NCBI GenBank assembly: GCA_000004985.1
Contig: GG738908.1
Length of the DNA stretch: 64,000 bases
DNA from: Naegleria gruberi
Lineage: Eukaryota
Reading direction: 5' to 3' (one strand)
In this document: positions 1-45,400 of the stretch, piece by piece
How the letters are laid out: the number at the start of each line of letters is the position of its first letter
Numbering within the stretch: position 1 is the stretch's first letter
Notes under the pieces: generated by a model
Told to the model about the DNA's origin: nothing
The model's input: the letters and a program-made list of their open reading frames with translations, nothing else
Database searches by the model: none
Program-made: the position numbers and the translations under genes

Positions 1-3000
1 CTAGCAATAACAATCAACGATCAATAGCCAAACCTCGACTTGTACCAATTATTCCCATTCAAAATATACAAAATCATCATCGAGGTTACTCACCATCCTC
101 CTCCGATTCATCTTCTTCTTCCTCTGAAGAAGATTCAGGCTCCTCTGACTCTCCCAAAGTGAAAACAAGTATAACAACAACACCAACAGGAGACAAGGAA
201 CCATCCTTCTCTTCATCCTCTTCATCATCAGCATTGACTACTAATCAGTCAAATCTTCACCTGACAGAGTATCACAATCATAATAATCGTTTTCATAATC
301 GTACGCCTTCTTCACCCACTGCCAGATTAACTGACGATGTTAATACAATTAAATTATCAACCATTTCTCCAACATCACCTTCTTCACCTTCTGTTCTACC
401 TTGGTCTCCACATACACCACCAGTCAACAAACAACAACAACCACAACAACATGCTCATCTCTTGACTCCCCTTCCAATTCACAAAATTTCTAGTCCTATG
501 GATTCATCAGATGAGCCAGCAAGATTGACTGCTAGAACACAACAACCACTTTCACAATCATTTTCACAGGATGTTTTACCACTTTTTGATGATAATCATG
601 TGGATCAATTGGTTACACATCGTACGAGTTCACTTAATTTACAGGCAAGTTATAAAGGTGGTCATATCAATCATGGCCATTCTCACGATCATGCCATACC
701 TAAAATTCAACAACGTAGAGGTCAATATTTTCCTCACGATCAATTCAAGATTGTAATGACTGATTTCACAATACAAATCACTGAAAAGAACAATGAATCA
801 ATAATTATTGAAGAGTATACAGAATTGAAATCTCTAGGAACTGGTGGACAAGCTACTGTTTTTTCAGGTCTTGAAAAGACTACTGGTGAAAGAGTGGCTC
901 TGAAGGTTATTAATGCTGGAGGAAATTCAGCACAATTGTGGAATGAAGTAAGTTTCTTTAGCATCATTGATTCTAATGTAATTTTCAGTTTAATATTTTG
1001 AGAGTTTTAAAGCATTCTTCAATTATACCCGTATGGAAGTTGTACGAAACAAAGAATATTTTCAATTCAATGATTATGATTACAATGCCAGTGTATATTC
1101 ATGGCGACATGACAGCATTTATTACCAAATTTGCTCCTAAATATGACACAAATCCATTTACACCACACGTAAGTAATTAATACTCTTAATAACAATATCT
1201 AACAATATTTTAACAGTGTATTATAGACATGGTTCTTCAAATAACGGATGCAATTCAATATACACACTCTAAAGGCATTATTCACAGAGATTTGAAACCT
1301 GACAATATTTTCATTTCTTCATTGGAACTTGATAAGAAGAATAGAAAATTAATAACATCATGTAAAGTAACTTTGGGAGATTTTGGACTTTCTAAGAATA
1401 TACAACAATCTATGGCAGTTTCTGTTGTTGGTACACTTGGATGGATGAGTCCAGATCATTTGAATGGTAATTTTTCTCTCAAAACAGACATGTGGAGTCT
1501 GGGATGTATTATATATTATTTGATCAGCTTGGATGCTGCTCTTTTAAACACTAACGATATGATTAACGAGAATCATGCTGCACACAAAGTGAAAATGAGA
1601 GAGAATATGTACAAGGTTTGTATTAATAATTTACGAATGTGTTTGTTTTAACATTGCATTTAGAAAATGAATTCAACATTACCTTCAAAATTTGTGGAAT
1701 TAATAGATATTGTTGTTACTAAGTTATTGGAAAAGAATCCAGAGGAGAGATTATCTTCTCATGAATTCTTTTGGGATTATTTGATACCTTGGAGATTTAG
1801 AATTGATGAAACCGAGTTGACAGAAGTAGTCCCTGGAAAAGAAGGTCTTTATTCTTGGAATGGATCTACTGTAACATTAAGAAGGGTCACTAAAGATCAA
1901 TTTAAAACACTTATTCAACTCCGAGATATTCAATACATTACTAAAGTTCTAGGATACTTTACAACGTATGATGAATTAACAGATCAAGAGGAGATTTACA
2001 TCCTCCACAAACCTCAAGGTACCAATTTGAAGGCCTATCTTGTTCCATCGAATCCAAGATATGTCTCCCTTCATGACAAATTGGAAATTTTGCTCAAAAT
2101 TGCAACAGCCATCGAAGAAATTAATAGAACTACAGATATTAGATTTATTATCAAATTGGACGAATCTAAAATATATGTAAGTATTGTGTAAAGATTGCTA
2201 ATTCGAATACTAATTATTTAGATTGATGAACAAGGAGAAGTTACACTCTCAATTTTGGATGCCGTTCAAGTACAACAACAACCTATGGAAAAGGATAACA
2301 TTTATAATTTATATTTCTTTAGTTTGGATTTATTGGATGATTGTAGAGAAATTTATAACTATCCATTTGAGGAATCATATTCTATGGTTAGGAAAAAGAA
2401 TAGTTTGATTGATTTCCCAAGATTACTAGTTTTCGTCTTTAGTAATTCAATAGTAACTCATCCAAGCAAATATTCATCCATTTACGTCTCACAAAAGTTG
2501 TACACTCAACTCTATATGAATCACAAGTTCCCAGGGGATAAATATGCAGCCGAAAGAAAGGAAAGTGTTACCTCATATCCATCTATCCATTCCCCTAATT
2601 CTTTGAGTATGACTCCTCCAACAGAGAATCCACTTGGACAATCACCACCTCCTTCATCAAATATTGCCATCATTACCCAAACAATGGAAGCAGAGAAATT
2701 GACACCAGAAGAGCAGTTCCATTGTTCACACAAGAGAATTAAGGAAATGATTAGAGCCAACTCAATCAGGCACATTCTCAAATCTTATCATATTGGAAGA
2801 GATGGAAATGATAAAAAGTGGAGTAAAATAATTATTGAAGAAGAAGAGGAGGGTGAAGTTCAAGCTTATGAAGAATACAGTCACCTACAAAACTATCATC
2901 TCACCTCTAACGCTCATGGTACTGATTCTCCTGTGGAAATTTCAGGAAAAGCAAAGAAAAACCCTGAGCTAGTTCATGTTTCTATTGAATGTTTGAACTT

Positions 3001-6000
3001 CCAACCAATTCTATTCCGTGATTATTTCAATGGAAAACAACTAGAACCATTGTATTTATATTGGTACTTGATCGATATCAAACAAAAGAGAAGAATTTCA
3101 GAGACCTTCAGTTGTGATATCAACTCTAGAGAAATGAGAATCTTCCTGGGTGAAGACAATGAGGATGATGATCCACTTTCAGTCAAAAAGAGCAGATGTG
3201 CTGGCTATGAAGTTGATTCTAGTAACTCTGACATCATGGTTTTGTTTGTTGTGACAAAGACTCTACAAGGTTCTGACAGCATGGACGCCTACATTAAACC
3301 TGGTAAATCCAAGTTGTCAGAGGAAAAGTTCACCAAATCTGTCAATACTCTTTTCCCTACCTTAAAGAATTATCAACAAGTTGTTTCATGGGCTTGTGAA
3401 CCTCTCTTTGATTTTGAAGGAAATTTGATTTTACCTAAAGAAATTGAAACATTCTATTATATGGATGAGGTCAGAAATGAACATTCCTTCTATGAATTCT
3501 TTGAAAAGAGAGATGTCAAGAAAGAAAAGTTAGTTCCAATGACACTCAAACTTCACTGTGAGCTTACCAGAGCCTACGAAGCAACAACTGTCTCAAGCAA
3601 AGCAGCCGAAAGCCTTACCGATTTGAATGACCAATTTGCCACTTTGGATTTGAAATCTACTTCGTTTTACTTGAAGCAAACTAATGGCAATAACAATGGT
3701 TCCTACATGTGTAAAATGTTCACATTCGCTCCTAACTTTAGAAGCTCACTTACAGACAGTAACAATTTGTATATCTATCCACTTTCTACTGCTTTCAAAC
3801 GTCGTTTATTCTTGAAAGATATGAATGTTGGTATTATTGTGAAATTTAAGAGGAACGATAGAGATATTAGTGATGAAGGAGAACAAGTTTTCATCAAGAA
3901 GAATAACAAGACCTTCAAGGAAGGATTCAGCTCTGTTTCTTATCAATCTACCTCACCCCAATTCAATGATGAGCTCAAATTGCAACTACCAGAACAATTG
4001 GGCTCTGGTGACCATTTACTCTTTACTTTTGTCAATGTGGATTGTGCTGGAGACGAGAAGAATGTACAAGTTGTTGGTCACTCATACTACATGTTGTTGG
4101 GAAAGCATGGTCTGCTTGCCACCCATGGAAATCTTATTTTACCAATCTATAAGAGACTTACCCCAAAGAGCTACTTGCAGGCTAACGAAGATACAAAGAA
4201 GAATGGAGAGTTCAAGGTTGAATTCCAACCAATTTCAACACTTTACACCACTGATATTAACCTGTACGAATTCTTCTCTGCCAACGAAGTAGTCAAAGTC
4301 ATGAAAAGTATTTATGGAGAAAATTTGGCTGAAATTCAAAATAACATTTCTAAAAAGTTGAAGAATTTGGAAAAGGTTGTTGATTTTAGAAATCTCATCC
4401 AATACATGCCCCAAATTGTGGATGAATTGCTGTTAATGATCACACTAAAGCAATTCCCAAATGTTCAATCAGGAGCTTTTGGTCTACTCAACTCATATCT
4501 AGATAAGCTCAAAAAGACTGAAAGAAATACCAAACAATATATTGAAAGATATATCAAGGAAGCTTTTGTTAATCATCCAGATTCTACAGGTCTTCTTTTT
4601 GAACAACTGTTGAAGAGATATGTCAGAAATCTTGATGAGGAACAAAAGATGCGAGCTGAAAAAAAGGGTGAAAATTTCAATTTTTCAGTGTACAATTTTA
4701 TATCAGGTGGAGGATCACATGACGGATTCTTGATCAACATGCCAAATGATAGCATTACCATTGAAAATAGTTCTATCTACTTCCAACTTATTGAAAAGTC
4801 TTTAATTCTTTACATGAATAATCAAAAGTTACTCAATCAACAATATGGTGCTTATAGCCCTTTGAGGCATTTAAGTAAGAAGAAAGATGATGTTCCTGCA
4901 CCATTCTCTCAACTTTTGGATCTTCTTTCAGAGTTGAGAACACTAGTTGTGAAAGAATGCAAGTTTAGATATTCTACCTCCATGTCAGTTGCCAAGCTCC
5001 TTGTCTCATCTTATGCACAATTCTTGTGTGGATTGATGAATTTGATAGATAGAGGATTTATCATTACAGAAATTGAAATGTTCTTGGATGAATTCCTCCC
5101 ATCAAAAGATCAACAATTTGAACTCTTACAAGAACTGAAGAATATCTTCTTGAAACAAATTTCTTGCTATGACCACTTCCTGTCCATGTGTCTTGCATAC
5201 AGCACCTCAAGCTGCTTGCAATATGTGAAAAAGAATGGTAATTATATTGTTTATCACATGTGTGACACTCACTACTTGTCTGGCATTTTCATCAAGAGAT
5301 TCCTCCTCGACACTCTCCACAAACAACGCAAGGTCAGAGAGAAGGCAGCCATCACATTTAACTTTTTACTCTCCCGACACGAATACGATGCTCGATTCCA
5401 AAGTAAGGAAGAAAGACAAAAGATTGCTTCACTCTACTTCCCTTTCATTATTATAATTTGTGACTTGTGGAAAACTTATGAGGAGCTCACTAAAGCAGAT
5501 TCCAAATCACTGAAGGATACACCAGACAAACGTCCAGAAGCACAAACCATGCTCATCAACTTTTTACACATATTAATCAATACGAGAAAGAAGGTATTCA
5601 GACAGTGGTGGACTCAAGAAGCTGTGGAGAGAAAGAAGCAATTCATCAAGATTCTCTCATCAGTTCCAAAACTATTCAAATATGCCCACTCGAGAAATTC
5701 CAGTGCTGATGAAGATGAAGATCCCTATCATCAACATCAACATCCAATGGCAACTCCAAGAAGTAGCAGTCTCAAACCAGTATCCTCCAGAGAACAATCC
5801 GATGGTGCTCTCTCTCCAAGAGGTAAAAAGTCTGGCACTATGAAAGAAACAACTGGAAGAAAGAGTTTCATTTTCCCATTCGCTTCAAAGGACGATTCAT
5901 TCGATCCAAGGAAGGTTCCTCTTTCTAGATTTTCCTCACCAACTGTTAACAAGCTCTCTCACAGAACTTCTGTCAGCATCTTGAGAAGTCAACAATCCAG

Positions 6001-6841
6001 CTATTCTCAACTTTTCAGAGGTGATTCTAAGAAAAAGGCCAAAGAACAACAAAACAGATGGAGAAGAATTCTCTCAATTCAAGCCAGTATTGCTACTATG
6101 AGAATCATGTCTTGGATTTTCGAAGAGGAACTCTATCAACAACAGCAAAATGCAAGACCAAGTAGTCCTGATGATCTCACTTCGGATTTGTCCTATCTGA
6201 AAATCGTTTTGGAATTCTTCTTTTCACATTTGGAAGTTGAGCAATCCGAAACAACTTATCAATTGGTATTCCAATTACTTGCTCTCTTTGTGAAGAATTA
6301 CAAGATATACAGTTACTATTATTCACGTGAAGATTTAATTAGAAAGGTTAATGAATTTGCAACAAGATCAACCGTTGAATCTACCAAACTTACTGCACTT
6401 GCTTTCACAAAATGGGTCAAATTACAGCAGCAATTATTTGCATCCTTGTCTTTCTCTGCAAATTCTGTCAATAGACAATCCTCTTACAATATCAAACCAA
6501 TAGACAGAACCAAGTCATCAGGTGCTTCCAAATTTGATGGAATATTAAACATTTCTGACTTGTTGTGGAATATTAAAGTCAGATACAAGGAGAGACAATA
6601 CGTAGAACAGTTGAAGGGATGGCTCAACAGTCAACAACCAGATGTGATCACTGCTGTCGAATATTTGGAAAAGGAATTTGTCAAGTACATGTATCCAGAT
6701 GATTTCACACCAACTACAAATGTAAACAGTAAGGCAATGAGAGTTTCTGATAATGACAATGACGAAGAGGATCTTGAAAGTGTTCCTTCTGAAGAGGAAG
6801 GTGAAGAACTCTCGCTCTTCCAAGCACTACGACTAATGTAA
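1..6841 (+). CDS. 5'-partial multi-exon gene encoding, from N- to C-terminus: a low-complexity N-terminus, a Ser/Thr protein kinase domain, a degenerate kinase-like segment, and a ~1500-aa DOCK-like region (C2/DHR-1-like 'GDHLLFTFVNVDC' motif plus a helical DOCK mid-region)
   Basis: The reading frame is open from the window edge, so the gene starts upstream. The kinase carries GTGGQATVF, VALKV, HRDLKPDNIF, DFGLSK and GTLGWMSPD, and its subdomain XI follows a splice. The exon model is 3..947, 989..1168, 1217..1615, 1664..2176 and 2222..6841. All junctions are GTAAGT/GTTTGT...AG with phases conserved. The 45-nt intron at 2177..2221 contains an in-frame TAA and joins ...KLDESKIY to IDEQGEVTLSILDAVQ... 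in frame. The large exon contains HLLFTF and ASLYFPFIIIICD / QWWTQEAV motifs that resemble the DOCK DHR-1 and pre-DHR-2 regions. I recalled these motifs from memory and have not searched them. It ends ...LFQALRLM* at 6839..6841. Confidence 0.6.
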
Positions 6842-7046: not shown

Positions 7047-7523
7047 ATGTTAAGCCGTTGGATGGGAGATATTTTCGATGAACCATTTGGAATTACTACT
7101 TGGGATCCATTTCTCAGTAGTGGTGGTGGCACTAGCGATCGTAACAGAGGTGGCGTAGATTTCTATAGAAATCAACTTGGCTCCTTCACTCCTTCAACTG
7201 ATGTCTCTGAAACTGACAAGTGCATTTGTGTTAAATCCAATTTGCCAGGTTTGAAGAAGGAAGATGTCAGAATTGATGTTGATGATGAAAAGAGACTCTT
7301 AACCTTCTCAGGTGAAACCAAATCTGAAAAGACTGATGAGAATGAAATCTATCACAGATCTGAAAGATATTATGGTAAATTCAGTAGATCTATGAGATTG
7401 CCACAAAATGTTGACTTGAATGGAATTAAGGCAAATATGAATGAAGGAGTTTTGAATATTTCAATTCCAAAAGTTGAACAAAAGGAAAAACAAGTCAAGA
7501 CTCGTTCCATTGGAGTTGATTAA
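7047..7523 (+). CDS. Small heat-shock protein (alpha-crystallin / Hsp20 domain)
   Basis: A single 158-aa ORF. The C-terminal ~90 aa have the alpha-crystallin-domain pattern (...VKSNLPGLKKEDVRIDVDDEKRLLTFSGE...YGKFSRSMRLPQNVDLNGIKANMNEGVLNISIPK...). Confidence 0.85.
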   Translation: MLSRWMGDIFDEPFGITTWDPFLSSGGGTSDRNRGGVDFYRNQLGSFTPSTDVSETDKCICVKSNLPGLKKEDVRIDVDDEKRLLTFSGETKSEKTDENEIYHRSERYYGKFSRSMRLPQNVDLNGIKANMNEGVLNISIPKVEQKEKQVKTRSIGVD

Positions 7524-7581: not shown

Positions 7582-10290
7582 ATGAAACGAAACCATTCTT
7601 CCTTGTCGAGTGGTGAAACAGTGATACAACAAAATGAAGAATTGGAAAGGAAGAAAAAGAAAACACCATCTGCGTTTCTGGATTCCCTATTGGAAAGATA
7701 TGAAAAAGTCTTGTATTCCATTAAATCGGAACTTTCGAATAATACAACAACCATCAATTCCGATTTGAGAAAAGAACTCGACCATTGTCACTTTAGTCTG
7801 ATCAATCTAATGGATAATCCTATTTCAAATCAACCGAAAGAAGACTATTCATCCTACACTGAATATGTCGAACAAAGTATTAATGACGTTTTACCAGATC
7901 ATATTCTCTCACAAATATTCTCCTATTTGAGTTTTCATGATTTCCGAGAGGTTACTAGGACTTGTATGATGTGGAGGAGGATTTGCTTTACAATTCAGAG
8001 TGCTTTGAGCGCATTTGAGATTTCTGATGAGATGCCAGTCGAGTGTGCAATGAGTTTATTCACCAGATTTGTGGAATGGAGAATTGGAAGTATTAGAAAA
8101 GTGAATATTCATTCAATCAATGTGTTTACGAATTGTGGACACAAATTTACTGGTGTCAAGTTTCTGGAAGAAGCAAGTAGTATGGCATTGACTGGATTTC
8201 CAAATATTGAAAGGGTTAAAGAATTGGAAATTACATCAACCTTCTTTGGAGATATGTACAAATATCCTGGATTGGAATCAATCAAATTTTTGAAATTTAA
8301 GGATGCTGTAATTGATTTCTTTCATTGCTCATTGTTTGGATTGACTTTGGTAGAATCGCTTCTTCCATTAATTGATTTTGAAAAGGTTGACTCACTCAAA
8401 TTGGTAACTAATTCAAAATTACTGAATTCCTTAGCTTGTTATGCCAAAGAAAATATCCAATCAAAAGCAAATCTACTCTTTCAGAATATCAACTCTAAGA
8501 TTAAATATTTGAGAATCACTCTAGCTGAAGAATCAACTGAAGATGACGATTTTGAAGGAGAAGTTGACATTCCACTTTCCAATTTAGAGGAATTATATGT
8601 TGAATTCGCAACCGTACGAACGGTGAATATGCTCCATTTTGATCCAGAGAAATTGAAAAGATTACAGATTGGATCTTGGCACGGCAAACACACAATTGAA
8701 AATCCACTACAGCCAAGAGTTAGTTTTGAGTTGTTTCTCGTTTCAGAATTTCACCAATTGCTAAACAGATCGGCAAAAATTCAAACTCTAGTTTTGGATA
8801 ATGTCAAGCCATTATTTTACAGAACCTTTGCGTTTTCACAATTTAAAAACTTGACACATCTCCATGTTGCAGAAATGAGTAATTCTAATCTAACCCAACT
8901 TGCACCAAAGCTTCAAGTTCTCAAAGTTGGCACAATTACTGAATTTAATCCAGAGATTTTCAAATTATTTGGATCATTGAAGGAACTTGAAATGGATCCT
9001 AAATATGCTTCAAAGATTGACTTTAAAGACCTACCGAAACTTTCAAATATTACTTTACAATCATTTTCAGCTCATTACTCGATGGATATTAATTCAGATT
9101 CTTTGAAGAGTATTCGGGTTATGTCCCGAATAAGAACTCTCACCATCAATGCAATCAATCTTGAAACATTCGATTTGAAGGGAAATATTGACAAACTCTC
9201 TATCCGATCGAACCAATTAGAAGCATTAGGTGTGATGTCTTATAATCAAATAGGGGATTTGTCAATTCTTTCATTCCAAATTCCAAACCATGGATGTGAA
9301 AATGTGTCCCCTCTAAAGGAGTTAAATTTGGCTAATGTCTCAACTGTAAGACAATTGCATTGTCCTTATTTGAAAACAATTAAGGTTCAATCTATGGCAT
9401 CTATTTGCCAACTTGTAGATTTGGATCAAACTCCTCTTATTGAAATGATAATATTTGAAAAGGCGTTTATTGAACCAGATGCTTTCAAGACATGTTTGGA
9501 TTATTTTGAAAATCTCAAAACGATTGAATTTTTTGATTGTAATCTTGGATCCTCAGCAAATGAAATCATTGAATTCTCATCCACAATTGAAGTTATTGAA
9601 ATTTATGAGGGAAGTCCAGAATTGATCAGATTTTTAACTAGCTTATTCTCAGAATCACCAAGTATGAAAGCTATCTATTTAATGGACACGGAGGTTGAAG
9701 AAACCTTTATTGAATCCATTTCACAACCAAAAGCAGATCAGTGGAAGAATCTCGAATTAATATCCCTCCAGAATTGTGTCAACATTTCAGGAAAGGCAAT
9801 TTCAGACTTTTATTCAAATATCAAACATTATGCATCCCTCAAATCTCTCACTCTGGTCCTTTCACCAGGAAATGAAATTGTCTACGATGCAAGAATTCCA
9901 CAAACTTTGGAATCCTTTACTGGAATTTTCAATTCTGTGGAAATTATTCCAACCAGCACGGCAAGAAGCAATATGGTGAATTTAAAGACAATTACATTGG
10001 ATGGAAGAAATTCTACATTTTCAAATTTTGAGATTAATACATTTTTACAATCGATATTCGATTTGTTTGTGGATGATAAGGAAGAAATGGCTCCATTCAG
10101 GACAGAGTTATATTCGCTGTTAGCTTGTGAAAGGTTGATTGCAGATTCTGAAAGTGATCCTCCAGATTTCAAACTAATCAATAAGGTAGTTGCTGGAATT
10201 CCTTCTATTCGAATCGTTTCGAAACAGTTATTTACAGATGATCCAGTTTTATTGCTCAGTCAGCGGCCACATCTCAAATTGTGTGATTAA
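7582..10290 (+). CDS. F-box protein with long leucine-rich (LRR-like) C-terminal region
   Basis: A single 902-aa ORF. The F-box motif LPDHILSQIFSYLSFHDFREVTRTCMMWRRIC is followed by about 700 aa of L/I/N-rich repeats of the form L..L.L. Confidence 0.75.
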   Translation: MKRNHSSLSSGETVIQQNEELERKKKKTPSAFLDSLLERYEKVLYSIKSELSNNTTTINSDLRKELDHCHFSLINLMDNPISNQPKEDYSSYTEYVEQSINDVLPDHILSQIFSYLSFHDFREVTRTCMMWRRICFTIQSALSAFEISDEMPVECAMSLFTRFVEWRIGSIRKVNIHSINVFTNCGHKFTGVKFLEEASSMALTGFPNIERVKELEITSTFFGDMYKYPGLESIKFLKFKDAVIDFFHCSLFGLTLVESLLPLIDFEKVDSLKLVTNSKLLNSLACYAKENIQSKANLLFQNINSKIKYLRITLAEESTEDDDFEGEVDIPLSNLEELYVEFATVRTVNMLHFDPEKLKRLQIGSWHGKHTIENPLQPRVSFELFLVSEFHQLLNRSAKIQTLVLDNVKPLFYRTFAFSQFKNLTHLHVAEMSNSNLTQLAPKLQVLKVGTITEFNPEIFKLFGSLKELEMDPKYASKIDFKDLPKLSNITLQSFSAHYSMDINSDSLKSIRVMSRIRTLTINAINLETFDLKGNIDKLSIRSNQLEALGVMSYNQIGDLSILSFQIPNHGCENVSPLKELNLANVSTVRQLHCPYLKTIKVQSMASICQLVDLDQTPLIEMIIFEKAFIEPDAFKTCLDYFENLKTIEFFDCNLGSSANEIIEFSSTIEVIEIYEGSPELIRFLTSLFSESPSMKAIYLMDTEVEETFIESISQPKADQWKNLELISLQNCVNISGKAISDFYSNIKHYASLKSLTLVLSPGNEIVYDARIPQTLESFTGIFNSVEIIPTSTARSNMVNLKTITLDGRNSTFSNFEINTFLQSIFDLFVDDKEEMAPFRTELYSLLACERLIADSESDPPDFKLINKVVAGIPSIRIVSKQLFTDDPVLLLSQRPHLKLCD

Positions 10291-15543: not shown

Positions 15544-16658
15544 NNNNNNNNNNNNNNNNNNNNNNNNNNNNNNNNNNNNNNNNNNNNNNNNNNNNNNNNN
15601 NNNNNNNNNNNNNNNNNNNNNNNNNNNNNNNNNNNNNNNNNNNNNNNNNNNNNNNNNNNNNNNNNNNNNNNNNNNNNNNNNNNNNNNNNNNNNNNNNNNN
15701 NNNNNNNNNNNNNNNNNNNNNNNNNNNNNNNNNNNNNNNNNNNNNNNNNNNNNNNNNNNNNNNNNNNNNNNNNNNNNNNNNNNNNNNNNNNNNNNNNNNN
15801 NNNNNNNNNNNNNNNNNNNNNNNNNNNNNNNNNNNNNNNNNNNNNNNNNNNNNNNNNNNNNNNNNNNNNNNNNNNNNNNNNNNNNNNNNNNNNNNNNNNN
15901 NNNNNNNNNNNNNNNNNNNNNNNNNNNNNNNNNNNNNNNNNNNNNNNNNNNNNNNNNNNNNNNNNNNNNNNNNNNNNNNNNNNNNNNNNNNNNNNNNNNN
16001 NNNNNNNNNNNNNNNNNNNNNNNNNNNNNNNNNNNNNNNNNNNNNNNNNNNNNNNNNNNNNNNNNNNNNNNNNNNNNNNNNNNNNNNNNNNNNNNNNNNN
16101 NNNNNNNNNNNNNNNNNNNNNNNNNNNNNNNNNNNNNNNNNNNNNNNNNNNNNNNNNNNNNNNNNNNNNNNNNNNNNNNNNNNNNNNNNNNNNNNNNNNN
16201 NNNNNNNNNNNNNNNNNNNNNNNNNNNNNNNNNNNNNNNNNNNNNNNNNNNNNNNNNNNNNNNNNNNNNNNNNNNNNNNNNNNNNNNNNNNNNNNNNNNN
16301 NNNNNNNNNNNNNNNNNNNNNNNNNNNNNNNNNNNNNNNNNNNNNNNNNNNNNNNNNNNNNNNNNNNNNNNNNNNNNNNNNNNNNNNNNNNNNNNNNNNN
16401 NNNNNNNNNNNNNNNNNNNNNNNNNNNNNNNNNNNNNNNNNNNNNNNNNNNNNNNNNNNNNNNNNNNNNNNNNNNNNNNNNNNNNNNNNNNNNNNNNNNN
16501 NNNNNNNNNNNNNNNNNNNNNNNNNNNNNNNNNNNNNNNNNNNNNNNNNNNNNNNNNNNNNNNNNNNNNNNNNNNNNNNNNNNNNNNNNNNNNNNNNNNN
16601 NNNNNNNNNNNNNNNNNNNNNNNNNNNNNNNNNNNNNNNNNNNNNNNNNNNNNNNNNN
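15544..16658. other. Assembly gap (1115 N)
   Basis: A run of n. Both flanks carry partial paralogous genes, so the true size is probably underestimated. Confidence 0.99.
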
Positions 16659-18358: not shown

Positions 18359-18408
18359 NNNNNNNNNNNNNNNNNNNNNNNNNNNNNNNNNNNNNNNNNN
18401 NNNNNNNN
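18359..18408. other. Assembly gap (50 N)
   Basis: A run of n flanked on both sides by the same ~900-bp sequence. Confidence 0.99.
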
Positions 18409-22768: not shown

Positions 22769-25700
22769 NNNNNNNNNNNNNNNNNNNNNNNNNNNNNNNN
22801 NNNNNNNNNNNNNNNNNNNNNNNNNNNNNNNNNNNNNNNNNNNNNNNNNNNNNNNNNNNNNNNNNNNNNNNNNNNNNNNNNNNNNNNNNNNNNNNNNNNN
22901 NNNNNNNNNNNNNNNNNNNNNNNNNNNNNNNNNNNNNNNNNNNNNNNNNNNNNNNNNNNNNNNNNNNNNNNNNNNNNNNNNNNNNNNNNNNNNNNNNNNN
23001 NNNNNNNNNNNNNNNNNNNNNNNNNNNNNNNNNNNNNNNNNNNNNNNNNNNNNNNNNNNNNNNNNNNNNNNNNNNNNNNNNNNNNNNNNNNNNNNNNNNN
23101 NNNNNNNNNNNNNNNNNNNNNNNNNNNNNNNNNNNNNNNNNNNNNNNNNNNNNNNNNNNNNNNNNNNNNNNNNNNNNNNNNNNNNNNNNNNNNNNNNNNN
23201 NNNNNNNNNNNNNNNNNNNNNNNNNNNNNNNNNNNNNNNNNNNNNNNNNNNNNNNNNNNNNNNNNNNNNNNNNNNNNNNNNNNNNNNNNNNNNNNNNNNN
23301 NNNNNNNNNNNNNNNNNNNNNNNNNNNNNNNNNNNNNNNNNNNNNNNNNNNNNNNNNNNNNNNNNNNNNNNNNNNNNNNNNNNNNNNNNNNNNNNNNNNN
23401 NNNNNNNNNNNNNNNNNNNNNNNNNNNNNNNNNNNNNNNNNNNNNNNNNNNNNNNNNNNNNNNNNNNNNNNNNNNNNNNNNNNNNNNNNNNNNNNNNNNN
23501 NNNNNNNNNNNNNNNNNNNNNNNNNNNNNNNNNNNNNNNNNNNNNNNNNNNNNNNNNNNNNNNNNNNNNNNNNNNNNNNNNNNNNNNNNNNNNNNNNNNN
23601 NNNNNNNNNNNNNNNNNNNNNNNNNNNNNNNNNNNNNNNNNNNNNNNNNNNNNNNNNNNNNNNNNNNNNNNNNNNNNNNNNNNNNNNNNNNNNNNNNNNN
23701 NNNNNNNNNNNNNNNNNNNNNNNNNNNNNNNNNNNNNNNNNNNNNNNNNNNNNNNNNNNNNNNNNNNNNNNNNNNNNNNNNNNNNNNNNNNNNNNNNNNN
23801 NNNNNNNNNNNNNNNNNNNNNNNNNNNNNNNNNNNNNNNNNNNNNNNNNNNNNNNNNNNNNNNNNNNNNNNNNNNNNNNNNNNNNNNNNNNNNNNNNNNN
23901 NNNNNNNNNNNNNNNNNNNNNNNNNNNNNNNNNNNNNNNNNNNNNNNNNNNNNNNNNNNNNNNNNNNNNNNNNNNNNNNNNNNNNNNNNNNNNNNNNNNN
24001 NNNNNNNNNNNNNNNNNNNNNNNNNNNNNNNNNNNNNNNNNNNNNNNNNNNNNNNNNNNNNNNNNNNNNNNNNNNNNNNNNNNNNNNNNNNNNNNNNNNN
24101 NNNNNNNNNNNNNNNNNNNNNNNNNNNNNNNNNNNNNNNNNNNNNNNNNNNNNNNNNNNNNNNNNNNNNNNNNNNNNNNNNNNNNNNNNNNNNNNNNNNN
24201 NNNNNNNNNNNNNNNNNNNNNNNNNNNNNNNNNNNNNNNNNNNNNNNNNNNNNNNNNNNNNNNNNNNNNNNNNNNNNNNNNNNNNNNNNNNNNNNNNNNN
24301 NNNNNNNNNNNNNNNNNNNNNNNNNNNNNNNNNNNNNNNNNNNNNNNNNNNNNNNNNNNNNNNNNNNNNNNNNNNNNNNNNNNNNNNNNNNNNNNNNNNN
24401 NNNNNNNNNNNNNNNNNNNNNNNNNNNNNNNNNNNNNNNNNNNNNNNNNNNNNNNNNNNNNNNNNNNNNNNNNNNNNNNNNNNNNNNNNNNNNNNNNNNN
24501 NNNNNNNNNNNNNNNNNNNNNNNNNNNNNNNNNNNNNNNNNNNNNNNNNNNNNNNNNNNNNNNNNNNNNNNNNNNNNNNNNNNNNNNNNNNNNNNNNNNN
24601 NNNNNNNNNNNNNNNNNNNNNNNNNNNNNNNNNNNNNNNNNNNNNNNNNNNNNNNNNNNNNNNNNNNNNNNNNNNNNNNNNNNNNNNNNNNNNNNNNNNN
24701 NNNNNNNNNNNNNNNNNNNNNNNNNNNNNNNNNNNNNNNNNNNNNNNNNNNNNNNNNNNNNNNNNNNNNNNNNNNNNNNNNNNNNNNNNNNNNNNNNNNN
24801 NNNNNNNNNNNNNNNNNNNNNNNNNNNNNNNNNNNNNNNNNNNNNNNNNNNNNNNNNNNNNNNNNNNNNNNNNNNNNNNNNNNNNNNNNNNNNNNNNNNN
24901 NNNNNNNNNNNNNNNNNNNNNNNNNNNNNNNNNNNNNNNNNNNNNNNNNNNNNNNNNNNNNNNNNNNNNNNNNNNNNNNNNNNNNNNNNNNNNNNNNNNN
25001 NNNNNNNNNNNNNNNNNNNNNNNNNNNNNNNNNNNNNNNNNNNNNNNNNNNNNNNNNNNNNNNNNNNNNNNNNNNNNNNNNNNNNNNNNNNNNNNNNNNN
25101 NNNNNNNNNNNNNNNNNNNNNNNNNNNNNNNNNNNNNNNNNNNNNNNNNNNNNNNNNNNNNNNNNNNNNNNNNNNNNNNNNNNNNNNNNNNNNNNNNNNN
25201 NNNNNNNNNNNNNNNNNNNNNNNNNNNNNNNNNNNNNNNNNNNNNNNNNNNNNNNNNNNNNNNNNNNNNNNNNNNNNNNNNNNNNNNNNNNNNNNNNNNN
25301 NNNNNNNNNNNNNNNNNNNNNNNNNNNNNNNNNNNNNNNNNNNNNNNNNNNNNNNNNNNNNNNNNNNNNNNNNNNNNNNNNNNNNNNNNNNNNNNNNNNN
25401 NNNNNNNNNNNNNNNNNNNNNNNNNNNNNNNNNNNNNNNNNNNNNNNNNNNNNNNNNNNNNNNNNNNNNNNNNNNNNNNNNNNNNNNNNNNNNNNNNNNN
25501 NNNNNNNNNNNNNNNNNNNNNNNNNNNNNNNNNNNNNNNNNNNNNNNNNNNNNNNNNNNNNNNNNNNNNNNNNNNNNNNNNNNNNNNNNNNNNNNNNNNN
25601 NNNNNNNNNNNNNNNNNNNNNNNNNNNNNNNNNNNNNNNNNNNNNNNNNNNNNNNNNNNNNNNNNNNNNNNNNNNNNNNNNNNNNNNNNNNNNNNNNNNN

Positions 25701-25800
25701 NNNNNNNNNNNNNNNNNNNNNNNNNNNNNNNNNNNNNNNNNNNNNNNNNNNNNNNNNNNNNNNNNNNNNNNNNNNNNNNNNNNNNNNNNNNNNNNNNNNN
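22769..25800. other. Assembly gap (3032 N)
   Basis: A run of n. Confidence 0.99.
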
Positions 25801-42465: not shown

Positions 42466-45400
42466 TTATTGTCTCTTATATTTAATAATAAATTCAGGAT
42501 AACATTGACATTTATCATAGACAATGAATTCTCTATATGAATTAGTTGAAGTATTTGATTGACCAATAACACTATCATAAACTCTATTGTTACTTCCTGA
42601 AATTTCAGGTGGTCTTCTCTGATTATTCATCACTTGTTTTGTGAAATGAATTTGTCTTCCCATTACAACTCTACATAATAATAGAGTATATTCATTGGAA
42701 TGATCAGGTGTACAATATTGATCACTCTTTGAACAATATTCTGCAAAATAAATACCTGCTCCAAATAATCCATTTAAATTTGCAACTCTTTCATCAAATC
42801 CATGTTCTGCAATTGTATTCACAAATTCAGGTTTTGTTCCATGCCATAAATATTTTTCATTCATATTAGAATTTAATCCAATTGTTTTCATCCATTCAAA
42901 TGATTTTGATGTTTTTGAAATATTTTCAGTTTGAACTTGAAGTGAATTAATTGAATCTTGATATGAAATTAAATGATTCATTCTTGATTTGAATGAAGTG
43001 AAAAGTGTTGAATTTTCAATTCTTGAAACACTTGAAACAATTAATTTAGAATAATTAATTCTTGATAATTGATCTCTTCCAGATCCAAGTGTTGCAGAAT
43101 TACACGATACATTCATAATTTCTTGCATTGTATCTTTTAAATATTGTGTAACATCAACAGTGTAATATCTTTTCGAATAAGTTTGGAATGTGTTTCTTTT
43201 CCAATAACTTGGAAGTGAAATTGTTAATTGTTTGGATTTTGATTCTTTAATTTCCTTTTCCATCTTCTCAATTTCAATTTCTTTTTGTTTCAAATTTTGT
43301 AATTTCTTTGAAATTTCTTCACTTTTCTTTGACTTTGAATTTGAAAATTGTTTCTTTTCCTTTTCTAGATTTAAAATTTCAATTTTCAAATTTTCATGAT
43401 TTTTTTTCATTTTCAATTCAAATTCATTCAATTGATTCTGATAATCTTTCAATTCCTTTGATTGATTTTCCATTAATTGAACATGTTTCTGAATTTTAAC
43501 TTCATCTAATAATGTTCCTTTCAAAAAGAATTCATTTGCAAGTGCATCAGATGCAAATGGTCTCAAATTTACATCTGAATTCAAACATTCATCACATAAA
43601 TTATTCAATGATTTGAATTGTTTCAATTCTTGTTCTTTCATACAATTTTTAATTGTTTTACCAAATGCAAACATGTCAGATTTAAATGTTGCTGATGTTT
43701 TTCCATTCACTAATTCAGGTGCTAAATAATCCAATGTACCAGCAATTCCACTTGTTCTTGTGAATAAATTCATTGTTCTACTTGTTATATCTAAACTAAT
43801 ATCAAAATCACCTAAAATAATTGGATAATATTCTGTGATCATNNNNNNNNNNNNNNNNNNNNNNNNNNNNNNNNNNNNNNNNNNNNNNNNNNNNNNNNNN
43901 NNNNNNNNNNNNNNNNNNNNNNNNNNNNNNNNNNNNNNNNNNNNNNNNNNNNNNNNNNNNNNNNNNNNNNNNNNNNNNNNNNNNNNNNNNNNNNNNNNNN
44001 NNNNNNNNNNNNNNNNNNNNNNNNNNNNNNNNNNNNNNNNNNNNNNNNNNNNNNNNNNNNNNNNNNNNNNNNNNNNNNNNNNNNNNNNNNNNNNNNNNNN
44101 NNNNNNNNNNNNNNNNNNNNNNNNNNNNNNNNNNNNNNNNNNNNNNNNNNNNNNNNNNNNNNNNNNNNNNNNNNNNNNNNNNNNNNNNNNNNNNNNNNNN
44201 NNNNNNNNNNNNNNNNNNNNNNNNNNNNNNNNNNNNNNNNNNNNNNNNNNNNNNNNNNNNNNNNNNNNNNNNNNNNNNNNNNNNNNNNNNNNNNNNNNNN
44301 NNNNNNNNNNNNNNNNNNNNNNNNNNNNNNNNNNNNNNNNNNNNNNNNNNNNNNNTGTTATCACTTTCAGTGTAAATTCCTTCAATTTCAATAATATTTG
44401 AATGTTTTAACTTGTTTGTAATTNTCAATTCCTTTTCTAAACCTTCAATTGATTTCTTATCTTTTAAATTATATTGTTTAATTATATGTTTTTTATCATT
44501 TAAATCAATTCCAATAAAAACATTATGATTTCCATTCCAATTTTGAATTGGTTTAATTTCTTTAAACATTTCAGGTGTCATTTCATTAATATTTAAATTA
44601 GATAATAAATCACTTGCCATGTTTGATTTAATATCAAATCCAATTGTCGTTAATTGAAGAAATTTCATTTTAATTTCATTTAATTTTTGAATATTTTCCT
44701 TCAAATTAGATTTTAATTCAATTAAATTAAATTCTTTAATTTGAATTTCATCTTTAATATCATTCATTTCATCTTCATTATTAACATGTTTCAATTCATC
44801 TTTTAATCCTTCAATATCTAGATTTAACATATTTAAATTTCTTGTAATTCTTGTTTTTTGTCTTTGAATGGTTTTAAATTGTTCAGATAAATTTGAATAA
44901 TTATTCATAATATTTATAATATTTTGTAACATTTCATATTTTTCAATTATATATGGAATTGTTTCTTGAATTAATAATTTACAATTTAATTCTTGTTTTT
45001 GATAATAATTATATAATTCTAAAATATTCATTTGATCATTGTCTGAAATTAATACTTTACAATTTGATAATATATTATTTAAATATAATTCTTCTTGTTC
45101 TGATAATTCCATTGCTTTTTGTAAATTATTTGAAAATTGTGTCAAATCAATTTCATTACAATAATTGATAGAGTTTACAATATTTGATAATTGTTTTGTA
45201 ACTTGTTGTAATATTGTTTTAGTTTCATTTCCAAATTTATTATGAGTTGGAACTATATTAATACTGTTTATATTCTTAATAGATTGTTCACTCATTTCAA
45301 TACTGTCAAATAATTCTTGTTTAATAAATTGAGAATTAAATTCATTAAATAATTCTAATTTTTCACTTAATACTTCTAAATAAGATTGTAATTTAAATAA

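What the first reader, a model, noticed from the sequence alone, without database searches (positions are those of the whole stretch)
1..6841. Protein kinase and DOCK-like region encoded in one continuous gene
A conventional kinase domain is followed by a degenerate kinase-like stretch (...TVTLRRVTKDQF...EIYILHKPQGTNLKAYL...IRFIIKLDESKIY|IDEQGEVTL...). This joins through a 45-nt phase-0 intron straight into a 1528-aa ORF. Only 45 nt lie between the two coding blocks, so there is no room for an independent promoter. Reading through the intron gives TAA, while splicing keeps the frame. The large ORF carries a C2/DHR-1-like core (GDHLLFTFVNVDCAGDEKNVQVVGHSYYMLLGKHG) and DOCK-like helical motifs (ASLYFPFIIIICD, QWWTQEAV). 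It stops about 150 aa into what looks like DHR-2 lobe A. The GEF catalytic lobes therefore seem missing or encoded elsewhere. A kinase fused to a DOCK-type scaffold would couple phosphorylation to Rho/Rac regulation in a single polypeptide.
Basis: partly seen in the sequence, partly recalled or inferred. Interest (0 to 1): 0.6.

Follow-up and report, generated by a model that had tools for sequence, protein, structure and literature searches.

The report
Kinase fused to GEF-less DOCK scaffold
This Naegleria gruberi gene really does join an active-looking protein kinase and a dead kinase-like domain to the membrane-binding and helical parts of a DOCK protein, but the part that would switch on Rho/Rac is missing, so it is probably a membrane-targeted kinase rather than a Rho/Rac activator.

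Summary
Window 1-6841 (+ strand) is the 3' 87% of one Naegleria gruberi gene, NAEGRDRAFT_81641 / XP_002671092.1 / UniProt D2VXT8, annotated only as "predicted protein". It has five exons and four short phase-0 GT-AG introns.

The 45-nt intron at 2177-2221 is real. It sits at the same codon in four Naegleria genomes, with lengths of 45, 40, 69 and 61 nt. Read-through hits an in-frame stop in all four, and the flanking coding sequence is conserved.

The protein carries these parts:
- a kinase with all catalytic motifs (Pfam E 2e-46);
- a kinase-like stretch that has lost them (profile-profile E 3e-5; 0 of 200 shuffles reach its score);

No DHR-2 is present in the protein or anywhere in the 64-kb window. 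The gene ends at a conserved C-terminus, followed by an HSP20 gene, in all four species. The claim that it runs 150 aa into lobe A is not supported. All regions are under purifying selection (dN/dS 0.03-0.14).

Best reading: a DOCK-derived scaffold without GEF activity that places a kinase at membranes. It is a new variant of known kinds, of modest interest, and restricted to Naegleria in the searched databases.

The parts
3..947 (+). Exon 1, 5'-truncated by the window edge. It encodes the low-complexity Ser/Thr/Gln-rich N-terminal region and the start of the kinase domain.
   Evidence: The frame is open from window base 3. The translation is identical to XP_002671092.1 from residue 321.
816..1768 (+). 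Ser/Thr protein kinase domain (aa 272-543), interrupted by introns 1-3. Motifs present: G-loop GTGGQA, VALK, alphaC Glu, HRDLKPDN, DFG.
   Evidence: Pfam Pkinase E 2.3e-46. The motifs are invariant in three species. The closest solved structures are ULK1/2, E about 3e-22.
948..988 (+). Intron 1 (41 nt, GTAAGT..CAG, phase 0)
   Evidence: Its removal reproduces the annotated protein.
1169..1216 (+). Intron 2 (48 nt, GTAAGT..CAG, phase 0)
1616..1663 (+). Intron 3 (48 nt, GTTTGT..TAG, phase 0)
1790..2530 (+). Kinase-like (pseudokinase) domain, aa 551-782, split by intron 4. Beta3 Lys is Arg, the HRD Asp is Ile, the catalytic Asn is Glu, and there is no glycine loop.
   Evidence: hhalign against 113 kinase domains: E 3.3e-5, probability 72%, aligning beta4 through DFG. 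None of 200 shuffles reach the score. The part encoded in exon 5 has dN/dS 0.058. Pfam and HMMER give no hit.
2177..2221 (+). Intron 4 (45 nt, GTAAGT..TAG, phase 0). This is the junction in the finding. Read-through hits TAA at 2189-2191.
   Evidence: The intron is at the same position in four Naegleria genomes, with lengths 45/40/69/61 nt, and read-through hits an in-frame stop in all four. Nucleotide identity is 48-68% in the intron and 78-92% in the flanking 63 nt.
2222..6841 (+). Exon 5, including the stop codon. It encodes the end of the pseudokinase, the whole DOCK-like region and the C-terminal domain.
   Evidence: The 21 codons between the acceptor and the first ATG (2285) are conserved as coding sequence in four species.
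3038..3286 (+). DOCK-C-type upstream C2 ("DHR-3"-like) motif EPLYLYWYLIDIKQKRRISETFSCDINS
   Evidence: phmmer alignment to DOCK6 9vm2 chain residues 279-359. The hhalign match to DOCK-C/D starts here. The DOCK6 domain map is taken from PMC13503879.
3758..4255 (+). DHR-1 / DOCK-C2 domain
4256..5674 (+). ARM/TPR helical solenoid of DOCK type (precomputed Pfam PF28208 TPR_DOCK9)
5690..5959 (+). Ser/Pro-rich linker predicted to be disordered
   Evidence: AF2 pLDDT is below 50 at model residues 687-776. This region has the highest dN/dS, 0.14.
5960..6838 (+). Naegleria-specific C-terminal region: helical repeats, a loop, three short helices and an acidic tail. This is where DHR-2 would begin in a DOCK.
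   Evidence: Only Naegleria proteins match among 1.84e9 representatives. There is no PDB, Pfam or DOCK-profile match. A weak collinear hit lies upstream of lobe A. AF2 predicts helices at 776-940 with pLDDT 70-87. dN/dS 0.10.

Best explanation
Window 1-6841 encodes most of one Naegleria gruberi protein (2538 aa in full).

Order of parts: a long low-complexity N-terminus, a catalytically competent Ser/Thr kinase, and a pseudokinase. These are followed by the N-terminal two thirds of a DOCK-C/D (zizimin-type) protein: an upstream C2-like region, the DHR-1 C2 domain and the ARM/TPR solenoid. A Ser-rich disordered linker and a lineage-specific helical C-terminus complete it. The DHR-2 GEF domain has been lost or was never acquired.

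Shown:
- the single spliced gene;
- the domain identities;
- the absence of DHR-2;
- strong purifying selection on every part.

Inferred mechanism:
- The DOCK-derived module no longer exchanges nucleotide on Rho/Rac.
- It instead serves as a targeting and scaffolding chassis. DHR-1, and perhaps the upstream C2, would bring the protein to phosphoinositide-containing membranes. The solenoid would bind partners.
- The adjacent pseudokinase would regulate the active kinase, which phosphorylates substrates there. One possible substrate is its own Ser-rich linker.
For: Single gene:
- The spliced model equals XP_002671092.1.
- Independent annotations in N. fowleri (two of them) and N. lovaniensis carry the same fusion.
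- Intron 4 is positionally conserved in four genomes, with variable length and in-frame stops on read-through.
- Exon flanks are 78-92% identical against 48-68% for the intron. The 21 codons upstream of the first ATG of the large ORF differ mostly at third positions.
- The kinase-like domain spans the intron.

Domains:
- Pkinase E 2.3e-46 and DOCK-C2 E 7.4e-28.
- DOCK6 gives collinear matches.
- hhalign to DOCK-C/D gives E 2.3e-46.
- The kinase catalytic motifs are invariant.
- The pseudokinase gives hhalign E 3.3e-5, with 0 of 200 shuffles reaching its score.

No DHR-2:
- Pfam finds none, although the same search finds lobes A, B and C in the control DOCK P0005.
- The C-terminal profile finds only Naegleria.
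- tblastn of five DHR-2 regions against the whole window gives nothing below E 2.
- All four orthologous ORFs end at the same conserved C-terminus, and the next called gene downstream is HSP20.

Functional constraint:
- N. fowleri against N. lovaniensis gives dN/dS 0.025-0.14 in every region.

Membrane targeting:
- One of the two PIP-binding arginines of DOCK6 DHR-1 (Arg563, PMC13503879) aligns with a conserved Arg. A Lys/Arg lies two residues before the position of the second. This is my reading of the alignment.
Against: - No transcript, protein or functional data were available, so splicing and expression are inferred from comparative genomics and existing annotations.
- The pseudokinase call rests on a single profile-profile result of moderate probability (72%). 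The AF2 model of that region failed (pLDDT 36.6 with a 3-sequence alignment).
- Lipid binding by this DHR-1 is untested, and only part of the basic pocket is conserved.
- The C-terminal 290 aa is unexplained. By eye, 6551-6634 resembles the first helices of lobe A. If real, this could preserve a dimerisation element, although statistics do not support it.
- The AF2 model of the DOCK part is only moderately confident (mean pLDDT 60, pTM 0.58).
Confidence: 0.6

Rival explanations
1. It is still tied to Rho/Rac signalling. In this reading it acts as a non-catalytic DOCK paralogue (decoy or adaptor). It would bind the partners of canonical Naegleria DOCK/zizimin GEFs (GTPases, ELMO-like proteins, or DOCK itself) through the retained scaffold and phosphorylate them.
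For: - The retained region is the regulatory part of DOCKs. In DOCK6, the N-terminal region, DHR-1 and ARM mediate autoinhibitory oligomer contacts (PMC13503879).
- Naegleria is reported to encode both Dock and Zizimin proteins (PMC3620097) and ELMO-domain genes (PMC9928731).
- The ARM region is the most constrained part of the protein (dN/dS 0.025).
Against: - No partner-binding element specific to Rho GTPases was detected.
- Lobe A, the conserved DOCK dimer interface, is not detectably present.
- The DOCK_C-D_N region (PF11878) found in relatives is not detected here.
- This reading is entirely inferential.
Confidence: 0.25
2. It is a genuine DOCK GEF. In this reading the DHR-2 is too diverged to detect in the last 290 aa, or is supplied by further exons or a separate polypeptide.
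For: - By eye, ISDLLWNIKVRYKERQYVEQLKGWLNSQ (6551-6634) resembles the DLyxxIaxxYxxxPxLRxxWL start of lobe A seen in the DOCKs aligned.
- The weak collinear hit suggests the chain ends close to the ARM/DHR-2 boundary.
Against: - About 440 aa separate the start of lobe A from the end of lobe C in the control DOCK P0005. Here only about 100 residues follow the candidate motif, and half of them are an acidic tail.
- The hhalign score against lobe A (11.3) is below the shuffle mean (11.9).
- No DHR-2 match was found in the window.
- The C-terminus and the downstream HSP20 gene are conserved in four species.
- Lobes B and C carry the catalytic nucleotide sensor, which is invariant in all DOCKs (PMC10152721).
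Confidence: 0.07
3. It is an annotation artefact. In this reading two adjacent genes (a kinase and a DOCK-like gene) are wrongly merged, or the gene is a decaying DOCK pseudogene.
For: - Prokaryote-style gene callers on metagenome contigs do split it at the intron. P0010 ends in the read-through peptide and P0004 starts at the first ATG.
- No transcript data were examined.
Against: - Only 45 nt separate the coding blocks.
- The splice signals and the phase-0 position are conserved in four genomes, while the intron's length and sequence are not.
- Conserved coding sequence extends 63 nt upstream of the first ATG of the large ORF.
- One homology unit, the kinase-like domain, spans the junction.
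- dN/dS is 0.03-0.14, with no frameshifts or stops in 1524-1544 codons in four species.
Confidence: 0.03

Closest known systems
DOCK-C/D (zizimin-related / zizimin) Rho-family GEFs, e.g. human DOCK6 (PDB 9vm2), Tieghemostelium and Balamuthia DOCKs (P0005, P0006)
   Same: - The order of upstream C2-like motif, DHR-1 C2 and ARM/TPR solenoid is collinear.
- Sequence matches are significant (phmmer E 2.3e-18 to DOCK6; hhalign E 2.3e-46).
- A short loop follows the LYFPF-type motif, where DOCK6 has its disordered phospho-regulated segment.
   Different: - There is no DHR-2 (lobes A-C), so no nucleotide-sensor valine and no canonical dimer interface.
- The N-terminal DOCK_C-D_N region and PH domain are not detected.
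- A kinase and a pseudokinase are fused at the N-terminal side.
- A long Ser-rich linker and a Naegleria-specific C-terminus replace the end of the protein.
Tandem kinase-pseudokinase proteins (JAK family JH1/JH2, GCN2, plant tandem kinase proteins); comparison from general knowledge
   Same: An active protein kinase domain sits directly next to a degenerate kinase-like domain in one chain. In the known cases the degenerate domain regulates the active one.
   Different: - The order here is kinase then pseudokinase.
- No sequence relationship to those families was shown. The nearest solved kinases are ULK1/2, at only E about 1e-22.
- No regulatory role has been demonstrated.
Class I/II PI3K catalytic subunits (C2 + helical domain + kinase)
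   Different: - The matches cover only the generic C2 domain (134-206 aligned residues at high overall rmsd).
- The kinase here is a protein kinase placed N-terminal to the C2, not a lipid kinase placed C-terminal to it.
- This is an analogy in layout, not homology.

Membership tests
DOCK family of Rho GEFs | DHR-1 (DOCK-type C2) domain | tested here: met
DOCK family of Rho GEFs | Catalytic DHR-2 domain (lobes A, B, C) with the invariant nucleotide-sensor valine in lobe C (PMC10152721) | tested here: not met
   There are no PF06920, PF20422 or PF20421 hits even at E<=10, while the control DOCK P0005 hits all three. The C-terminal profile finds no DOCK in PDB or in 1.84e9 proteins. hhalign scores lie within the shuffle null. 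tblastn finds no DHR-2 in the window.
DOCK family of Rho GEFs | ARM/TPR solenoid linking DHR-1 to DHR-2 | tested here: met
DOCK family of Rho GEFs | Guanine nucleotide exchange activity on Rac/Cdc42 | not testable with these tools
   This needs a biochemical assay. Activity is predicted to be absent because lobes B and C are absent.
DOCK-C/D subfamilies | N-terminal DOCK_C-D_N region (PF11878), and a PH domain in DOCK-D | tested here: not met
   PF11878 is found in P0005 (E 4.2e-9) but not in the Naegleria protein. The best sequence relatives nevertheless all carry PF11878.
Eukaryotic protein kinases (active) | Kinase fold with Gly-rich loop, VAIK Lys, alphaC Glu, HRD Asp, catalytic Asn and DFG Asp | tested here: met
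   Pkinase E 2.3e-46. GTGGQA, VALK, WNE, HRDLKPDN and DFG were read directly in the sequence and are invariant in three species.
Pseudokinases | Kinase-like fold lacking one or more essential catalytic residues | tested here: inconclusive
   hhalign against 113 kinases gives E 3.3e-5, probability 72%, and beats 200 of 200 shuffles. The alignment puts Arg at the beta3 Lys, Ile at the HRD Asp and Glu at the Asn. Pfam, HMMER and the neighbouring kinase give nothing, and the AF2 model failed, so the fold itself is not shown.

The most novel reading that the evidence does not exclude
The DOCK scaffold (C2 domains plus ARM solenoid) would have a function of its own, independent of nucleotide exchange. 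Naegleria would have captured it as the membrane-sensing and regulatory chassis of a tandem kinase-pseudokinase. That would create a phosphoinositide-gated protein kinase of a type not described in any other eukaryote. Its conserved Naegleria-only C-terminus would take the place of DHR-2.
Probability: 0.35. Interest if true: 0.55.

Novelty: new variant of a known kind. Interest (0 to 1): 0.4.

Why it matters
DOCK proteins are defined and studied as Rho-family GEFs. A conserved, strongly constrained paralogue that keeps DHR-1 and the solenoid but drops DHR-2 is a natural experiment on what the non-catalytic two thirds of a DOCK does on its own: membrane targeting, oligomer contacts and partner binding. 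The added kinase pair makes that function easier to probe.

The orthologue exists in the pathogen N. fowleri (FDP41_010484). No relative turned up outside Naegleria in the searched databases, and the nearest solved kinases (ULK1/2) match only at E about 1e-22. A genus-specific kinase is therefore of some practical interest.

The gene model and its Pfam hits are already public. Domain shuffling in signalling proteins is common in this organism (general knowledge). No experiment supports any function yet.

Tried and rejected
- AF2 on the kinase plus pseudokinase, with a 3-sequence alignment. Mean pLDDT was 36.6 and even the canonical kinase did not fold, so the model was not used for fold search. 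Only the order of secondary-structure elements was noted.
- Pfam, HMMER against PDB, and hhalign against the gene's own kinase for the pseudokinase. All gave nothing. A broader kinase profile was needed.
- P0123, which covered 93% of the kinase-plus-pseudokinase query. It looked like a second tandem-kinase relative. The alignment is a BLAST over-extension into a non-kinase region, and P0123 has a single Pkinase domain.
- C-terminal 290 aa. A profile against PDB and hhalign against five DOCKs gave no significant match. A profile against 1.84e9 representative proteins matched only Naegleria. My own eyeballed lobe-A motif also failed when hhalign was restricted to lobe A.
- PI3K, Munc13, karyopherin and CAND1 fold hits. 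These are generic C2 or solenoid matches with very low TM-scores and were rejected as relatives.
- The afdb50 fold library was unavailable.
- Literature searches for the locus tags and accessions and for a Naegleria kinome found no description of this protein. Two searches combining Naegleria with DOCK and kinase or Rho terms surfaced none either; I checked only one listed paper from each.
- A fourth pseudokinase sequence from the metagenome locus L001 could not be used because of Ns in that contig. The read-through ORF P0010 supplied it instead.
Full report
WHAT THE WINDOW IS

The sequence is eukaryotic. It is about 34% G+C and has 41-48 nt GT-AG introns and several runs of N. A protein search identifies the region as Naegleria gruberi. 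The large ORF is 100% identical to the "predicted protein" XP_002671092.1 / EFC38348.1 / UniProt D2VXT8, locus NAEGRDRAFT_81641, 2538 aa. No paper in the searchable library mentions this locus or its orthologues.

GENE MODEL

Reading the DNA and testing splice choices gives five exons on the + strand: 3-947, 989-1168, 1217-1615, 1664-2176 and 2222-6841. They are separated by four phase-0 introns of 41, 48, 48 and 45 nt. The 5' ends are GTAAGT (three introns) or GTTTGT (one), and the 3' ends are CAG or TAG. The spliced product is 2218 aa and is identical to residues 321-2538 of the NCBI protein. The frame is open to the first base of the window, so the window cuts exon 1.

IS THE 2176/2222 JUNCTION REAL?

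I fetched the orthologous loci of three other Naegleria:
- N. fowleri (L002);
- N. lovaniensis (L003);
- an unnamed Naegleria-like organism from a JGI metagenome (L001).

All four have an intron at exactly the same codon boundary, FIIKLDxxKI[YF] | IDxxGEVxLSILDA. The introns are 45, 69, 61 and 40 nt long. Each starts with GTAAGT and ends with AG, and each puts an in-frame stop into the read-through.

Nucleotide identity between species is 48-68% in the intron and 78-92% in the 63 nt on either side. In the 63 nt between the acceptor and the first ATG of the large ORF, the differences are mostly at third codon positions. That stretch is therefore coding, which a separate downstream gene starting at an ATG could not explain. 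Three further annotations, two for N. fowleri and one for N. lovaniensis, also give the fused protein of 2408-2429 aa. Prokaryote-style gene calls on metagenome contigs split it at the intron (P0010 and P0004). I had no transcript data.

DOMAINS

Pfam on the spliced protein gives two strong hits:
- Pkinase, aa 272-543, E 2.3e-46;
- DOCK-C2 (DHR-1), aa 1192-1357, E 7.4e-28 (98 bits, cut-off 33.6).

Kinase. It has GTGGQA, VALK, the alphaC Glu, HRDLKPDN and DFG, all invariant in three species, so it looks active. Its nearest solved relatives are ULK1/2 at only E about 3e-22.

DOCK-like region by sequence. phmmer against PDB sequences gives four collinear stretches to human DOCK6 (E 2.3e-18):
- the upstream C2 ("DHR-3") motif EPLYLYWYLIDIKQKRRISETF;
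- DHR-1;

A profile of the four Naegleria sequences against a profile of five DOCK-C/D proteins gives probability 100%, E 2.3e-46, over about 800 columns. The match runs from that C2 motif to just before the Ser-rich linker. Public precomputed Pfam also lists PF28208 (TPR_DOCK9) for all four orthologues.

DOCK-like region by structure. An AF2 model of the last 1069 aa has mean pLDDT 60 and pTM 0.58. It shows:
- a beta-sandwich;
- about 470 residues of helices;
- a 90-residue disordered linker;
- about 165 residues of confident helices;
- a low-confidence end.

THE KINASE-LIKE STRETCH (aa 551-782, window 1790-2530)

Pfam, HMMER against PDB, and hhalign against the gene's own kinase give nothing. 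I therefore built a 113-sequence alignment of diverse kinase domains from the hits and compared it with the four-sequence Naegleria alignment.

The result is score 37.8, E 3.3e-5, probability 72%. The aligned segment runs from beta4 through the hinge, alphaE and the catalytic loop to DFG. None of 200 column-shuffled queries reached this score (mean 14.5, sd 2.8, maximum 31.8), and the reversed query scored 14.4.

In the alignment:
- the beta3 Lys is Arg;
- the HRD Asp is Ile;
- the catalytic Asn is Glu;
- there is no glycine loop;
- the DFG Asp is kept.

The fold itself is not shown, because the AF2 run on this region failed (pLDDT 36.6). The domain spans intron 4, which is further evidence for one gene.

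IS THERE ANY DHR-2?

No.
- Pfam finds no lobe A, B or C model in the last 479 aa even at E<=10. The same call finds all three in the control DOCK P0005.
- A profile of the last roughly 290 aa finds no PDB chain.
- Among 1.84 billion representative proteins it finds only the two Naegleria cluster representatives.
- hhalign of this profile against the DOCK profile scores 23.0, inside the shuffle null of 18.1 +/- 3.0, maximum 25.7.
- Its best local hit is not significant, but it is almost exactly collinear with the main alignment. It maps about 120 residues upstream of lobe A in P0005.
- tblastn of the C-terminal 650 aa of five DOCKs against the whole 64-kb window gives nothing better than E 2.4.

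The ORF ends at the same conserved C-terminus (...S[IL]FQALR[QL][LM]) in all four species. The next called gene downstream is an HSP20 gene on the same strand.

By eye, 6551-6634 (ISDLLWNIKVRYKERQYVEQLKGWLNSQ) recalls the DLyxxIaxxYxxxPxLRxxWL start of lobe A. An hhalign restricted to lobe A scores 11.3 against a null mean of 11.9, so this remains a lead only. The statement that the protein runs about 150 aa into lobe A is not supported. The chain most likely ends near the ARM/DHR-2 hinge.

SELECTION

Between N. fowleri and N. lovaniensis, exon 5 has dN 0.034 and dS 0.574. dN/dS by region:

| Region | dN/dS |
|---|---|
| C-terminal half of the pseudokinase | 0.058 |
| Pre-C2 region | 0.057 |
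| DHR-1 | 0.056 |
| ARM | 0.025 |
| Ser-rich linker | 0.14 |
| C-terminal 290 aa | 0.10 |

No frameshift or stop occurs in 1524-1544 codons in any of the four species. This is a working gene, not a decaying DOCK.

HOW IT PROBABLY WORKS

In DOCKs, lobes B and C with an invariant valine catalyse exchange. Lobe A forms the dimer interface. DHR-1 binds phosphoinositides (PMC10152721; PMC13503879). This protein keeps only DHR-1, the upstream C2-like region and the solenoid, so exchange activity is not expected.

My best reading is inference, not demonstration. The DOCK-derived part would target the protein to phosphoinositide membranes and bind partners. The kinase, regulated by its neighbouring pseudokinase, would be the output. 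One of the two PIP-binding arginines of DOCK6 DHR-1 aligns with a conserved Arg, and a basic residue lies two positions before the other. This is my reading of the alignment with the residue numbers of PMC13503879.

A related alternative is a non-catalytic DOCK paralogue that binds and phosphorylates components of canonical DOCK signalling. Naegleria is reported to have both Dock and Zizimin proteins (PMC3620097) and ELMO-domain genes (PMC9928731).

COMPARISON AND NOVELTY

The protein works partly like, and descends from, DOCK-C/D proteins, but it fails the defining DHR-2 test. It should not be filed as a DOCK GEF.

It is a new variant of known kinds: a GEF-less DOCK scaffold fused to a kinase-pseudokinase pair. 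The architecture was found only in Naegleria. The gene model and its Pfam hits are already in public databases, but no description was found in the literature. Interest is moderate.

Noticed in passing
window 15544-16658, 18359-18408, 22769-25800, 43843-44355: Runs of N (assembly gaps, 4711 bases in all). They explain the apparent G+C dips to 4-25% in the composition profile.
   Followed up: partly
window 7047-7523 (+); L001 7161-7478, L002 10910-11374, L003 10780-11232: A small heat-shock protein gene (Pfam HSP20 E 1e-23) lies about 200 bp downstream of the kinase-DOCK gene on the same strand. It occupies the same position in all four Naegleria loci, so the gene pair is syntenic.
   Followed up: partly
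window 7582-10290 (+): A 902-aa ORF with an F-box (PF12937 E 4.9e-8) follows HSP20 in N. gruberi. N. fowleri and N. lovaniensis have an RGS-domain gene on the opposite strand at that position. The metagenome contig has an LRR gene on the opposite strand. Synteny therefore breaks just after HSP20.
   Followed up: partly
window 1169-1216 versus L003 4607-5320: Intron 2 of the N. gruberi kinase region may be absent in N. lovaniensis, where one tblastn segment runs uninterrupted across the corresponding position. This would be an intron gain or loss within the genus.
   Followed up: no
L001 2010-2268 and proteins P0010, P0004: Metagenome gene catalogues hold this gene split in two at the intron. 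P0010 ends in the read-through peptide VSFTMSHIYSF, and P0004 starts at the first ATG after the acceptor. The kinase-DOCK fusion is therefore invisible in such catalogues.
   Followed up: yes
window 6551-6634 (+): ISDLLWNIKVRYKERQYVEQLKGWLNSQ resembles, by eye, the conserved start of DOCK DHR-2 lobe A. Two indels are needed to align it, and hhalign does not support the match. It could be a vestige of lobe A or a chance resemblance.
   Followed up: yes
window 5690-5959 (+): A Ser/Pro-rich disordered linker interrupts the solenoid. DOCK6 has a phospho-regulated disordered loop (residues 1185-1242) a little earlier in its ARM domain, apparently matching the shorter Naegleria loop around window 5500. 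Whether the long linker is a substrate of the kinase in the same chain is an open idea.
   Followed up: no
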